From Thermoplasmata archaeon (GTDB lineage: Archaea; Thermoplasmatota; Thermoplasmata; Lutacidiplasmatales; UBA184), in contig JAGWLG010000002.1 in NCBI GenBank assembly GCA_028864975.1, forward strand, positions 96,001 through 160,000: DNA of 64,000 bases, written 5' to 3'. Below the pieces are notes generated by a model that did not search any database, was not told the origin of the DNA, and worked only from the letters and a program-made list of their open reading frames with translations. This document shows positions 28,295-31,082 of this stretch, piece after piece. Both the position numbers and the translations under genes were made by a program. Each line of letters begins with the position of its first letter. Position 1 is the stretch's first letter.

Positions 28295-29263
28295 CTACTT
28301 CAGCAGCTGCCGGAGCAGTGTGGGGAGGCGTGCCGCGAAGTCGGGAGGGTAGTCGTGCCCGAGCCCGGGCACGAGGTCGAGGCGACAGTCGACTCCTCCG
28401 TCGACCAACTTGTCCTGCAAGGTCTCGGTCGCACCTCGAGAGGGATCGGCCGTCCCCGTGACCAGCACCCCCTTGAGGTCGGGGGACAGGGGCCGCGCGG
28501 CCAGGTCGACGAGAGTTTCCCCCCCCTCGAGCGCAACAGCCCTCGTCGGGGCGACCGCGAGGAATCCGATGGCCGGAAGGGTTTGTTGCAGGGTCGCGTG
28601 CACCGCGAGGGCTGCTCCCTGGGAGTAACCTGCCAGCACGAGCGGGACGTTCGGGGACTCTCTCGGAAGGTCGAGGGTGACCGAGCGCAGGTCATCCAAG
28701 GCCCGAGGTACATCATCCCACCGATAGCGTTGGGACGACCAGGGTTGCGAGGATTGGACGAGCGCGACTCGGAAGCCCTCTTCCGCGGCGCGTCCCCAGA
28801 TGGGCTCGGCAGCGCGAGCGTTCTGTCCCCGACCGTGAAGGACGATGAGCCAAGGGGGCGGACGGTCCGGCGGGCTCTTGGGGATCGAAGGCATGACGAG
28901 GAGGTGGGACGGTCGCCGGGTCTCCCCTTCGGCCCGCGCCTGGAGCTCTCCCGCCCTCTTCCGGACACGGTCGAACTCCGGGAGACCCTGGAGAGGTCCC
29001 AGGAAGTTCCCGTACATCTCGAACCACTGGGGCGGCCACCAAAGGCCTCGGTCCAGGGATTCCTCCAGTTCGCGGACCGCTCCCGCGTGGTCCCCACGTT
29101 GAACACGAGCGATCGCGACGGTCATGGCCGCATCGTCGCTCTGGTCGGGGAAGGCCGCGGCGATCTCACGGGCGGCCGCCTCCAGAGCGACGAAGTCTCC
29201 CCGAGCGAAAGCGAGGTTCTGCCGCTCCTCCAGGGCTCGGAAGTCGGTGTTCCCCTCGGTCAT
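28295..29263 (-). CDS. alpha/beta hydrolase (esterase-like) with helical TPR-like N-terminus
   Basis: LIVLHGRG, nucleophile elbow AGYSQGA, GTADP and GLGHDYP. Confidence 0.75.
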   Translation of the reverse strand: MTEGNTDFRALEERQNLAFARGDFVALEAAAREIAAAFPDQSDDAAMTVAIARVQRGDHAGAVRELEESLDRGLWWPPQWFEMYGNFLGPLQGLPEFDRVRKRAGELQARAEGETRRPSHLLVMPSIPKSPPDRPPPWLIVLHGRGQNARAAEPIWGRAAEEGFRVALVQSSQPWSSQRYRWDDVPRALDDLRSVTLDLPRESPNVPLVLAGYSQGAALAVHATLQQTLPAIGFLAVAPTRAVALEGGETLVDLAARPLSPDLKGVLVTGTADPSRGATETLQDKLVDGGVDCRLDLVPGLGHDYPPDFAARLPTLLRQLLK

Positions 29264-29419
29264 GATGCACGCTCGGCGGTCGGCTCCTGGGATGCGTCCC
29301 GGACCCCGCTTCGTCTTGAAAGGCGTTCCGACCGGTCCCTCGGCGCCATGACGTCGTGGTTGTGGGCCCTCGTCGCCGCGAACAGAATCCCTAAGTCCTC
29401 CGGGAAGGCTGCGCCTCGC

Positions 29420-29529
29420 GGGCTCGTGGGGTAGTCTGGACTATCCTGATGGCCTTCGGAGCCATCGACCCGGGTTCGAAGCTCATCGGCCGCTAAGGGC
29501 GACCATGAGAGAGAATCCCGGCGAGCCCG
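29420..29529 (+). tRNA. tRNA-Arg(UCG) with a 35-nt intron in the T-loop
   Basis: Acceptor stem GGGCTCG/CGAGCCC, D-arm with A20 (Arg identity element), anticodon stem ATGGC/GCCAT with loop CT-TCG-GA (anticodon 29456-29458), T-stem CCGGG/CCCGG, discriminator G, no encoded CCA. Exons 29420-29480 and 29516-29529. Confidence 0.92.
29481..29515 (+). other. tRNA intron at non-canonical position 59/60 with relaxed BHB motif
   Basis: GCTCATCGGCCGCTAAGGGCGACCATGAGAGAGAA. Inner helix CTCAT/ATGAG, central helix TTCG/AGAG (3 of 4 pairs), and 3-nt bulges AAG and AAT. Confidence 0.85.
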
Positions 29530-29555: not shown

Positions 29556-31082
29556 CTAGCTCGCGCCCTTCCTCAGGGTCAGGACGGACTCTCTTAGGAG
29601 GAAGTCCCTACGTTGCCCCGAGCGACGGACGCGGGCGACCTCGAACTTCTCGACCTCGAACCCCGCACGTACCGCAAGCCGACCGAAGAGCAGGTCTCCA
29701 GGAACGTAGCTACCGGCCATCCAACTGTCCCCGTTGACGACCACGAACTTCCCGCCGGGGCGTAGCGCGCGGTGGACCGCCACGATCACCGGGACCAGGT
29801 CGTCGAAGTACTTCGCGACGATCTCCGCCATGTCGCGTCGGCGATAGACGGTCTTGGATGCGATGTTCTCCTCGATCTGCCCCAGGGCGTGGGAAAGCCA
29901 GCCATCCTCCTTCACCCAACGTCCCGCTTCATGCGCGCTGATCACGCTGGGGGAGACGTTGTCGCAGGCCACCATGTCCGATTTTAGCCGCGCGAGGTCC
30001 TCGTAGCTGCGGACCTGGCCGAGCCACGCCATCTCGAGCTTGTAGTTCATCACATAGTCCATCCCGTTGACGTAGGGCGGGCTGGTGATCGCCAGGTCGA
30101 CGCTCGCCTCAGGGAGGTCGAGCTGCTTCGAGTTCTCTTCGAGGACTTGGGCCGGCGGTCCAAACCGCCCCCTTTGCGGCTTGAGCCACGTGAGGTCGGT
30201 CGCGATGAGCTCCGCCATCCCAAGGAAGCGCTGGTAAGGGGTCTCGGCGCCCACCTCGGGCTTGCGCGCGTACCCCAGGCAGGGCGAGCGCTTGAGCCGG
30301 CTCGAAGCGACGAGCACCCCCGCGAACGCGAGCTCGAGCAGAGAGCGGACCTCGCCCGCCGGTAGCCTCTCGAGCTCCGCGCGCATCCGAAGGAGGGAAT
30401 CGAGAGCTCCCGGGGCGAACTGTCGAGAGGTCTCTCGAAGGAACGGAGGGGGAGCTGGGGTCCCCCGTCGCGCGCGGACAACGAGCTTACGAGCGGCAGA
30501 ACGGACCCTTGAGGGAGCCGCCGTCCAGAGGTGCTTGGCGCGAATGACCATGGCGGCCACTGGCATGAGCTCGGAGGCGATCGTCTGGGCTCCCCGGAGC
30601 CGCGCCTCCACGCTGACCGTGCCCGATCCTGCGAAGGGGTCAAGAACGACCTTCCCCGGGCCGATGTCGAAGGCTTCGCAAGTGCGACGGACGAACTCGG
30701 CACTGAATCCCTGAACGTAGGGCCACCACCGATGGACCGGAAGCTCCTCGTTCGGGTTGAACTGGATCTCCCCCTGGAACGGGTCTGGGCCAGGAAGCTC
30801 GAAGCCCTTCAGGAAGCGGTCGAGATACCAGGACGGCCCCCGAACGTCGCTCTCCTCCCCGGGCTGACCCTTGTACCGGGGAAGGATCCAGAGCCCCTTC
30901 CCGACGCGCAGTACGCGCTGCGCCTGCGAGAGCCGACGGAGGGTCGCCTCGACCTCGACGACCGGCCTCCCCGTGGTGGAGGCCAATTGCTTGGAGGTGA
31001 TCCCCAAGAGCCCCGCGTTCTCGATCGCGGAGAGCAGGGGCCTGTCGGCCGTTGACGCCACGAGCCCTTGCACGAACCCCAA
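29556..31082 (-). CDS. amino-DNA methyltransferase (likely N4-cytosine, motif I before motif IV) with N-terminal winged HTH
   Basis: VLDPFAGSGT (motif I), ITSPPYVNGMDY (motif IV) and LRPGGKFVVV. The N-terminal 70 aa look like a wHTH. No adjacent endonuclease. Start TTG 31082 or GTG 31073. Confidence 0.85.
   Translation of the reverse strand: MGFVQGLVASTADRPLLSAIENAGLLGITSKQLASTTGRPVVEVEATLRRLSQAQRVLRVGKGLWILPRYKGQPGEESDVRGPSWYLDRFLKGFELPGPDPFQGEIQFNPNEELPVHRWWPYVQGFSAEFVRRTCEAFDIGPGKVVLDPFAGSGTVSVEARLRGAQTIASELMPVAAMVIRAKHLWTAAPSRVRSAARKLVVRARRGTPAPPPFLRETSRQFAPGALDSLLRMRAELERLPAGEVRSLLELAFAGVLVASSRLKRSPCLGYARKPEVGAETPYQRFLGMAELIATDLTWLKPQRGRFGPPAQVLEENSKQLDLPEASVDLAITSPPYVNGMDYVMNYKLEMAWLGQVRSYEDLARLKSDMVACDNVSPSVISAHEAGRWVKEDGWLSHALGQIEENIASKTVYRRRDMAEIVAKYFDDLVPVIVAVHRALRPGGKFVVVNGDSWMAGSYVPGDLLFGRLAVRAGFEVEKFEVARVRRSGQRRDFLLRESVLTLRKGAS

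What the first reader, a model, noticed from the sequence alone, without database searches (positions are those of the whole stretch)
29420..29529. tRNA-Arg(UCG) split by an intron inside the T-loop (59/60) with a relaxed BHB
Seen: a complete cloverleaf forms only if 29481-29515 is removed. The junctions fold as T-stem, bulge AAT, helix TTCG/AGAG (U-G, U-A, C-G, G-A mismatch), bulge AAG, intron helix CTCAT/ATGAG. This places both cuts exactly at 59/60. Known: canonical introns sit at 37/38. Non-canonical positions and relaxed BHBs are characteristic of lineages with broad-specificity splicing endonucleases ((alpha-beta)2 in Thermoproteota, epsilon2 in ARMAN). Euryarchaeal-type alpha2/alpha4 EndA enzymes prefer strict BHBs. 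Inference: in this apparently Thermoplasmata-like genome, the intron implies either an EndA with unusually relaxed specificity or a recently gained intron. Standard annotation could miss this gene or call it a pseudo-tRNA.
Basis: partly seen in the sequence, partly recalled or inferred. Interest (0 to 1): 0.8.

Follow-up and report, generated by a model that had tools for sequence, protein, structure and literature searches.

The report
T-loop intron in arginine tRNA gene
This is a real and apparently indispensable arginine tRNA gene, interrupted in its T-loop by a 35-base protein-spliced intron; it is an old trait shared by many tRNA genes across uncultured Thermoplasmata, a group that reviews describe as having introns only next to the anticodon.

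Summary
Observation confirmed. Removing window 29481-29515 from 29420-29529 gives a 75-nt tRNA-Arg(UCG). It differs by one base from intron-less orthologues that score 56.7 bits as tRNA. The junction folds as a bulge-helix-bulge motif that puts both cuts at 59/60.

This is the genome's only Arg(UCG) gene. CGA makes up 14% of arginine codons.

- The intron is not recent. It sits at the same site in 32 orthologues from published genomes, across most genera of the family and one sister family. Its sequence has diverged, with compensatory changes in every intron-helix pair.
- It is not an oddity. Eight other tRNA genes of this genome carry a 59/60 intron. A model of the motif hits 96 of 151 sampled Thermoplasmata genomes.
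- It is only mildly relaxed. 28 of the 32 orthologues have a strict motif. Only this genus has one G-A mismatch in the central helix.

The sole splicing endonuclease is an ordinary two-unit (alpha'2) EndA without the crenarchaeal specificity loop. The 59/60 site copies the geometry of the canonical 37/38 site, so a strict enzyme should suffice.

This scan found the same phenomenon earlier in other Thermoplasmata genomes. I found no paper describing it. This gene is a new member of a known kind; moderate interest.

The parts
29388..29396 (+). A/T-rich TATA-like element about 25-32 nt upstream of the tRNA start (putative archaeal promoter; inferred)
   Evidence: An A/T-rich hexamer (CTAAG, CTTATA, CAAATA, CTTTAG and similar) lies at the same distance upstream in all 20 orthologous loci printed. 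The sigma-70 scan is not relevant to archaea and found nothing.
29420..29480 (+). 5' exon, tRNA positions 1-59: acceptor 5' strand, D-arm, anticodon arm, short variable loop, T-stem 5' strand, T-loop U54-A59
   Evidence: Read by hand. The BLAST matches of most family members end exactly at base 61 of the query. Matches Rfam tRNA only as a 19-bit partial hit.
29456..29458 (+). Anticodon TCG (Arg, reads CGA) in the loop C-U-UCG-G-A
   Evidence: ARAGORN places the anticodon at position 37 of the gene. CGA is 14% of Arg codons and occurs in 1489 of 1548 long ORFs.
29481..29515 (+). 35-nt intron at 59/60
   Evidence: Its removal gives the sequence of the intron-less orthologues apart from one D-loop base. 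The BHB-guided splicing scan picks exactly this interval.
29470..29474 (+). Outer helix h, 5' strand (T-stem 49-53); pairs with 29517-29521
   Evidence: 100% paired in 37 sequences, and 4 of 5 pairs show compensatory changes.
29475..29478 (+). Central 4-position helix H, 5' strand (U54 U55 C56 G57); pairs with intron 29510-29513 (AGAG), giving 3 standard pairs plus G57-A
   Evidence: The 57 pair is G-C in 29 of 37 sequences, A-U in 2 and unpaired in 6. Three of those six are this genus's Arg genes and three are other tRNA genes of this genome.
29479..29481 (+). 5' three-base bulge A58 A59 | G; predicted cut after 29480
   Evidence: Geometry of the motif. Position is consistent across the orthologues.
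29482..29509 (+). Intron hairpin: helix h' CTCAT/ATGAG (29482-86 with 29505-09) plus an inner G+C-rich stem
   Evidence: Present in the MFE fold. All five h' pairs show compensatory changes.
29514..29516 (+). 3' three-base bulge A A | U60; predicted cut after 29515
29516..29529 (+). 3' exon, positions 60-73: U60, T-stem 3' strand, acceptor 3' strand, discriminator G73. No CCA is encoded.
   Evidence: Identical to the 3' end of the intron-less orthologues.

Best explanation
Window 29420-29529 (+) is the functional, single-copy tRNA-Arg(UCG) gene of an uncultured Thermoplasmata archaeon, interrupted by a 35-nt protein-spliced intron between positions 59 and 60.

Proposed mechanism:
1. In the precursor the T-stem acts as the outer helix.
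2. T-loop bases 54-57 pair with the last-but-two four intron bases to make the central helix.
3. A58-A59-G and A-A-U60 form the two 3-base bulges.
4. The intron closes with its own hairpin.

This reproduces in the T-arm (5-bp stem, 7-base loop, cut between loop bases 6 and 7) the geometry of the canonical 37/38 intron in the anticodon arm.

The genome's one homodimeric two-unit (alpha'2) EndA is predicted to cut after the second base of each bulge, at 29480|29481 and 29515|29516. RtcB with archease would join the exons to give the T-loop UUCGAAU. CCA is added afterwards.

The intron is an old, vertically inherited trait of the family. It was lost in one genus, and it is one of at least nine 59/60 introns in this genome. 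The G57-A mismatch is a derived, tolerated change of this genus.

Shown here: the gene, the fold with its covariation, its conservation, and the presence and type of the enzymes. Inferred: cleavage, ligation and expression.
For: - Cloverleaf and motif: read. The BHB-guided splice scan recovers exactly this interval.
- Spliced product: equals natural intron-less orthologues but for one base, and those score 56.7 bits as tRNA.
- Sole copy: ARAGORN's second 'Arg(tcg)' on C20 has no Infernal hit at E<=1 and a non-canonical T-loop. The one on C115 is Glu(UUC) once its intron is placed by the splice motif. Three congeners also carry only the interrupted copy. CGA is in common use.
- Orthologues: 32 from published genomes carry an intron at the same site, 11-35 nt long and divergent in sequence. 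28 of them have a 4/4 central helix. A metagenome contig with identical exons has an unrelated intron with a strict motif.
- Covariation: 95.7% paired against 76.7% shuffled and at most 60% slid. All five h' pairs are compensatory.
- Other tRNA genes of this genome: Ser-GCU, Ser-GGA, Lys-UUU, Gly-UCC, His, Ala-GGC, Asn and Asp also carry a 59/60 intron.
- Class-wide spread: motif model R1 hits 96 of 151 class genomes. 15 of 16 spot-checked hits outside the family parse as 59/60 introns, and 13 of those are accepted as tRNA by ARAGORN after splicing.
- Enzymes: a single EndA with N-C-N-C domain order, Tyr/His/Lys aligned to the M. jannaschii catalytic unit, and no insert where A. pernix has its specific loop. 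RtcB and archease are present.
- Promoter: a TATA-like element is conserved upstream.
Against: - No RNA data, so splicing and the exact cut sites are inferred.
- The central helix of this gene has a G-A mismatch. The unconstrained MFE fold prefers another register, UUC/GAA with a 1-base 3' bulge, which is not a substrate shape.
- Published in-vitro work says alpha'2 and alpha4 enzymes cut only canonical motifs (PMC5829648, PMC4033280). Tolerance of the mismatch is therefore assumed from its persistence in four species, not shown.
- The genome is 89.6% complete, so an unassembled second copy cannot be excluded.
- The orthologues are related, so the covariation statistics overstate independence.
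- The motif model was trained partly on this gene.
Confidence: 0.85

Rival explanations
1. The lineage's EndA really has broadened specificity despite its plain alpha'2 build, and this intron, with its mismatched central helix, depends on that.
For: - The G57-A mismatch is fixed in all four species of the genus.
- Five of nine T-loop introns in this genome have a purine-purine mismatch at the same pair.
- At least one canonical-site intron here, Leu-UAA, has the same defect by hand reading.
- The best-scoring placements of the D-loop introns of the single-copy Lys-UUU and Arg-GCG genes have no outer helix, that is HBh'-like. A. fulgidus and M. kandleri enzymes cut that type poorly in vitro (PMC5829648).
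Against: - No crenarchaeal-type loop. The catalytic unit aligns to the strict M. jannaschii enzyme almost without gaps.
- 28 of 32 orthologues and most class-wide examples are strict.
- For this gene both bulges and both flanking helices are present, so it does not belong to the relaxed classes defined in the literature.
- The D-loop intron boundaries were not checked against relatives.
Confidence: 0.25
2. A recently gained intron, by insertion or transposition into this gene in this lineage.
For: Introns at one and the same site in nine different tRNA genes suggest copying at some time. The His and Ser-GGA introns show weak similarity (z 4.3, 1 of 300 shuffles).
Against: - The Arg(UCG) intron is at the same site across the family and in sister family f3, with wholly diverged sequence.
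- It shows no detectable similarity to the other eight introns of this genome.
Confidence: 0.03
3. A disrupted relic (pseudo-tRNA) or an assembly error.
For: Standard finders reject or mis-call it.
Against: - All stems are perfect and it is the only Arg(UCG) gene.
- The same structure appears in independent assemblies of three congeners and about 30 other genomes, with compensatory changes.
- The promoter element is conserved.
Confidence: 0.02

Closest known systems
[quoted passage not shown]
   Same: Same insertion point in the T-loop. Same use of the T-stem as the outer helix. Protein-spliced BHB type.
   Different: ARMAN-2 has a three-unit epsilon2 EndA with its own specific loop, and its Cys intron lacks one helix. 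Here the enzyme is a loop-less alpha'2 and the motif keeps both bulges and both helices. The site is used in at least nine tRNA genes per genome and across a whole class.
Non-canonical and multiple introns of Thermoproteales and other Crenarchaeota (Sugahara 2008 and Fujishima 2010, as cited in PMC4090602 and PMC4033280)
   Same: BHB introns outside 37/38, including 59/60. Many tRNA genes per genome are interrupted.
   Different: Those lineages use (alpha-beta)2 EndA with the crenarchaeal loop. Their introns are spread over many positions and are often relaxed. Here almost all non-canonical introns sit at the one site that mimics the anticodon arm, and most are strict.
Canonical 37/38 hBHBh' introns of Euryarchaeota, cut by alpha4 and alpha'2 EndA (A. 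fulgidus, PDB 1r0v/2gjw; M. jannaschii, 1a79)
   Same: Same 3-4-3 geometry next to a 5-bp stem and 7-base loop, with the cut between loop bases 6 and 7. Same enzyme architecture: the EndA matches 1r0v at 1.8e-25 and 1a79 at 1.6e-21.
   Different: Placed in the T-arm instead of the anticodon arm. This gene has one G-A mismatch in the central helix.
Methanopyrus kandleri EndA and its D-loop HBh' intron (PMC5829648; PDB 5x89, the best structural-sequence match, 3e-34)
   Same: A euryarchaeal enzyme without a specific loop, in an organism that nevertheless carries non-canonical introns.
   Different: The M. kandleri enzyme is an (alpha-beta)2 heterotetramer. Here both units are fused in one gene.

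Membership tests
Archaeal protein-spliced BHB (hBHBh') tRNA intron | Two 3-base bulges on opposite strands, four helix positions apart, with the cut after the second bulge base | tested here: met
   Bulges 29479-81 and 29514-16 flank TTCG/AGAG. The same register holds in all 32 orthologues from published genomes.
Archaeal protein-spliced BHB (hBHBh') tRNA intron | All four central-helix positions form standard pairs (strict form) | tested here: not met
   U-G, U-A and C-G pair, but G57-A does not. The feature is met in 28 of 32 orthologues and is missing only in this genus.
Archaeal protein-spliced BHB (hBHBh') tRNA intron | Outer helix h and inner helix h' are both present | tested here: met
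   h is the 5-bp T-stem and h' is 5 bp, CTCAT/ATGAG. Both show compensatory changes.
Archaeal protein-spliced BHB (hBHBh') tRNA intron | Excision restores a canonical cloverleaf | tested here: met
   The spliced sequence equals the intron-less orthologues except for one D-loop base, and those score 56.7 bits against a 29-bit cut-off.
Archaeal protein-spliced BHB (hBHBh') tRNA intron | Cleaved by EndA and joined by RtcB in vivo | not testable with these tools
   The genes are present. No RNA data. Metagenome scans found no spliced form.
Relaxed BHB introns (HBh', hBH, BHL) that need a broad-specificity EndA | One bulge or one flanking helix is missing | tested here: not met
   Both bulges and both helices are present.
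alpha'2 (two-unit homodimeric) EndA | Two tandem EndA units in one polypeptide and no separate subunit gene | tested here: met
   Pfam N-C-N-C order in one 374-aa ORF. It is the only locus over the cut-off in the genome. The units align to each other at E 5e-5.
alpha'2 (two-unit homodimeric) EndA | Catalytic Tyr-His-Lys triad in the C-terminal unit | tested here: met
   FRAY, SSHARY and VRKQ align with the RLY, KEH and VRKK motifs of M. jannaschii 1a79. The residue numbering is from my own knowledge.
Loop-bearing broad-specificity EndA (crenarchaeal L1, ARMAN L2, DPANN L3) | An insert with a conserved Lys near the active site of the catalytic unit | tested here: not met
   A. pernix 3p1z_B has about 10 extra residues (VEKPRGADFEGP) where this protein has none. 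The alignment to 1a79 has only 1-2-residue gaps up to position 162 of 175, and the alignment to A. pernix 3p1z_B reaches the C-terminus without an insert in this protein. L2 and L3 were judged only by the absence of inserts, not against their own sequences.
tRNA pseudogene | Broken stems, redundancy with an intact copy, no conservation | tested here: not met
   Perfect stems, sole copy, and conserved with covariation.

The most novel reading that the evidence does not exclude
The loop-less alpha'2 EndA of this Thermoplasmata lineage has a broader substrate range than its architecture predicts. It would have to accept purine-purine mismatches in the central helix (this gene and four other T-loop introns here). 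It would also have to accept D-loop introns that lack the outer helix, in the single-copy Lys-UUU and Arg-GCG genes. In that case the published rule that specific loops decide EndA specificity is incomplete, and an unrecognised determinant or helper exists.
Probability: 0.25. Interest if true: 0.65.

Novelty: new member of a known kind. Interest (0 to 1): 0.45.

Why it matters
Reviews state that Euryarchaeota with alpha4 or alpha'2 endonucleases have few tRNA introns, one per gene, at 37/38 only. They also state that non-canonical introns go together with loop-bearing enzymes (PMC4090602, PMC4033280, PMC5829648).

This gene and its relatives show a whole class of uncultured Thermoplasmata in which a plain alpha'2 enzyme coexists with many introns at one non-canonical site. 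In this genome at least 16 of about 47 tRNA genes are interrupted.

The pattern fits a simple rule: a strict enzyme allows introns wherever a stem-loop can copy the anticodon-arm geometry. That rule can be tested in vitro.

There is also a practical consequence. ARAGORN and Rfam/Infernal missed or mis-called these genes here, and the His gene is invisible to both. Genomes of this group will therefore look as if they lack essential tRNAs.

Tried and rejected
- **ARAGORN intron mode** only handles anticodon-loop introns. It produced false calls: C20 'Arg(tcg)', and C115 'Arg(tcg)' which is Glu(UUC).
- **A fuzzy-regex search with indels** timed out and was replaced by blastn-short.
- **Alternative cut registers 57/58 and 58/59** were rejected. 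They give no BHB, and in orthologues they would give TTCGACT instead of the TTCGAAT seen in intron-less genes.
- **An apparent insert in the EndA N-terminal unit** (GGTPSKTPSKWW, seen against A. fulgidus) was considered as a new specificity loop and rejected. Pfam covers that unit's catalytic-type domain end to end, positions 1-85. PMC5829648 reports that the A. fulgidus structural unit carries a deletion there.
- **A kink-turn reading** of bulge plus G-A was rejected because the G-A lies on the wrong side of the bulge.
- **Box C/D guide RNA in the intron**: too short, and no C or D boxes seen by eye.
- **Intron copying among the nine genes**: only His and Ser-GGA show marginal similarity. The Arg intron matches none.
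- **Metagenome scan for a spliced or intron-less copy with this genus's exon sequence**: none found.
- **Literature searches** for T-loop or non-canonical introns in Thermoplasmata found no paper.
- **Left unresolved**: the intron placement in two other genes, C10:2785 and C83:15780.
- **Not run**: tRNAscan-SE 2.0 and SPLITS, which are not available here.

Full report
**The locus**

Window 29420-29529 reads as a tRNA whose T-loop is split. The 5' part holds the acceptor strand GGGCTCG, a D-arm with G18 G19 and A14/A21, and the anticodon arm ATGGC/GCCAT with loop CTTCGGA. It also holds a four-base variable loop, the T-stem strand CCGGG and TTCGAA. After 35 bases come T, CCCGG, CGAGCCC and G73. 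No CCA is encoded.

The window is G000:C59:96001-160000. The gene lies in a 292-bp gap between a hydrolase-like gene (28295-29263, minus strand) and a methyltransferase-like gene (29556-31082, minus strand). It is downstream of the PolD large-subunit gene.

**Why finders fail**

- ARAGORN reports 29420-29494, but only by accepting two acceptor mismatches and a 3-bp T-stem.
- Rfam finds nothing at the gathering score in the window.
- In the whole genome the locus appears only as a 19-bit partial hit that ends at base 59.

**The splice motif**

The T-stem (29470-74 with 29517-21) continues into a four-position helix: TTCG (29475-78) against AGAG (29510-13). This gives U-G, U-A, C-G and a G-A mismatch. 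The bulges AA|G and AA|T lie on opposite strands. The intron then closes with CTCAT/ATGAG and an inner stem.

Cutting after the second bulge base gives 29480|29481 and 29515|29516, that is 59/60, and the T-loop TTCGAAT.

The unconstrained MFE fold chooses a slightly different register, UUC/GAA. The BHB register is therefore not the most stable one for this particular gene.

The T-arm has a 5-bp stem and a 7-base loop. Position 59/60 corresponds exactly to 37/38 in the anticodon arm. That correspondence is my inference from the standard numbering.

**Is it a real gene?**

- My BHB-guided splicing scan, followed by ARAGORN on the spliced sequences, returns this interval.
- Several relatives carry the same gene without the intron: one genus of the family, one further genome in the family, and several other families. 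Their 75-nt genes differ from the predicted spliced product by one D-loop base and score 56.7 bits as tRNA.
- The interrupted copies of this genome and a congener give no hit at E<=1 in the same search.
- The two other 'Arg(tcg)' calls of ARAGORN are not Arg(UCG). The C20 call has no Infernal support and a non-canonical T-loop. The C115 call is Glu(UUC) once its intron is placed by the splice motif.
- Three congeners also hold only the interrupted copy.
- CGA is 14% of arginine codons and occurs in 96% of long ORFs, so the tRNA is needed.
- An A/T-rich element lies 25-32 nt upstream in all 20 orthologous loci examined.

**Age and conservation**

BLAST matches in most of the 36 family genomes stop exactly at base 61 of the query. 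Parsing the loci gave the following:

- 32 orthologues from published genomes carry an intron at 59/60, 11 to 35 nt long.
- They cover every sampled genus of the family except one genus and one further genome, which are intron-less, and also one sister family (f3).
- A further family (f11) has what looks like a much longer T-loop insert, which I did not parse.
- Four genomes of another family (f2) instead have a long intron at 37/38.
- In 28 of the 32 the central helix is perfect (TTCG with CGAA, CGGA or CGAG; TTCA with TGAA).
- Only the four species of this genus have A at the first intron position of that helix.
- A metagenome contig with exons identical to ours has an unrelated intron with a strict motif.

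I aligned 37 T-arms: seven paralogues from this genome and 30 orthologues. On this alignment the proposed 14 pairs hold in 95.7% of cells, against 76.7% in shuffles and at most 60% when slid. All five intron-helix pairs and four of five T-stem pairs show changes on both sides. The orthologues are related, so these figures overstate independence.

**Not a one-off**

A whole-genome scan looked for T-arms split after TTCRA-N, with matching acceptor strands and a tRNA after splicing. It found nine genes: Ser-GCU, Ser-GGA, Lys-UUU, Gly-UCC, Arg-UCG, His, Ala-GGC, Asn and Asp.

- Four have a perfect central helix. Five have a purine-purine mismatch at the pair next to the 5' bulge.
- The His gene is found by neither ARAGORN nor Infernal.
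- Counting anticodon-loop and D-loop introns as well, at least 16 of about 47 tRNA genes are interrupted.

A covariance model of the split T-arm recovers 7 of the 9 in this genome. It hits 96 of 151 genomes sampled across the class.

- Genomes of this family have 2-10 hits each, most of them 6-10.
- Genomes with hits in other families have 1-4 each.
- Four families, with 22 sampled genomes between them, have none.
- The per-genome counts are lower bounds, because only 40 candidates per genome were scored.

Of 16 hits outside the family that I fetched, 15 parse as 59/60 introns with matching acceptor strands, in Arg-CCG, Arg-UCU, Leu-UAA, Lys-UUU and Gly-UCC. ARAGORN accepts 13 of the 15 as tRNA after splicing, and 14 of the 15 have a perfect central helix.

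One genome in these samples (G028) is unpublished. It was left out of the alignment and of the orthologue counts above. It is included in the tallies 96/151 and 15/15 for the family. No claim depends on it.

**The enzymes**

- The genome has one EndA locus, with domain order N-C-N-C in a 374-aa ORF.
- Its best solved relatives are the fused M. kandleri enzyme (5x89, 3e-34) and A. fulgidus alpha'2 (1r0v, 1.8e-25).
- The C-terminal unit aligns almost without gaps to the M. jannaschii alpha4 subunit, with Tyr, His and Lys in place. It lacks the roughly 10-residue insert that A. pernix carries at its specific loop.
- The two units are detectably related to each other.
- RtcB and archease are present.

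**Literature**

- Reviews say that Euryarchaeota with alpha4 or alpha'2 enzymes have introns only at 37/38 with strict motifs.
- They also say that Korarchaeum is the only alpha2 organism with non-canonical introns (PMC4090602, PMC4033280).
- Kaneta et al. tie relaxed-motif cleavage to inserts L1-L3 and show that loop-less enzymes cut an HBh' intron poorly (PMC5829648).
- 59/60 introns are on record for ARAGORN-independent cases in ARMAN-2 (PMC3239211) and are listed for Crenarchaeota.
- I found no paper on T-loop introns in Thermoplasmata.

Earlier agents of this scan reported the same phenomenon in other Thermoplasmata genomes. I saw those notes only after reaching the same reading from this genome.

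**Verdict**

The gene is real and almost certainly spliced.

The intron is old, one of many, and close to strict. It sits at the one non-canonical site that copies the canonical geometry. An ordinary alpha'2 enzyme is therefore the simplest explanation.

What remains open is how much mismatch this enzyme tolerates. The genus-specific G-A pair, the five mismatched T-loop introns and the two D-loop introns without an outer helix all point to some tolerance. Only an assay can measure it.

Noticed in passing
G000:C93:18312-18417 (+), outside the window: The tRNA-His(GUG) gene has a 32-nt 59/60 intron. Neither ARAGORN nor Infernal RF00005 (E<=1) finds it. Only the custom T-loop scan and a BLAST cross-match found it.
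   Followed up: partly
G000:C38:9218-9362 (+), locus L146: tRNA-Lys(UUU) has two introns: a 41-nt strict one at 59/60 and one of about 31 nt in the D-loop. The best placement of the D-loop intron is 20/21, with a 4/4 central helix but no outer helix (HBh'-like). Published assays say loop-less enzymes cut that type poorly.
   Followed up: partly
G000:C32:210148-210253 (-), outside the window: The only tRNA-Arg(GCG) gene has a D-loop intron of about 30-32 nt with a 4/4 central helix, a 9-10-bp inner helix and no outer helix. The exact boundary is ambiguous by one base.
   Followed up: partly
G000:C115:54062-54164 (-): ARAGORN calls this Arg(tcg) with an intron. When the intron is placed by the splice motif it is tRNA-Glu(UUC), which the genome otherwise lacks.
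   Followed up: yes
Loci L123, L136, L138, L139 (family f2, same order): The orthologous tRNA-Arg(UCG) genes carry a very long intron (over 100 nt) at 37/38. It is rich in repeated CGAAAAG...GGAAAAA units. Its content and 3' end were not examined.
   Followed up: no
Locus L131 (G050, family f11): The orthologous tRNA-Arg(UCG) has TTCGAA followed by at least 80 nt of A/T-rich sequence before any 3' exon. This may be a long T-loop intron. It was not parsed.
   Followed up: no
Loci L137, L141 (family f3): Mini-introns of 11 and 13 nt at 59/60, with a perfect central helix and almost no inner helix. An additional short intron lies at 37/38 in the same Arg(UCG) gene.
   Followed up: partly
Locus L170:3776-3879 (metagenome contig Ga0080006_1154657): A tRNA-Arg(UCG) with exons identical to the window's, but with an unrelated 32-nt intron and a strict motif. 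The intron sequence turns over fast while the exons stay fixed.
   Followed up: partly
G000:C10:2785-2897 and G000:C83:15780-15883: Two further interrupted tRNA genes score 37.8 and 42.7 bits. I could not place their introns with confidence. C83 looks like a second Ser(GGA) with an intron at 32/33. C10 may be Trp with a long variable region.
   Followed up: partly
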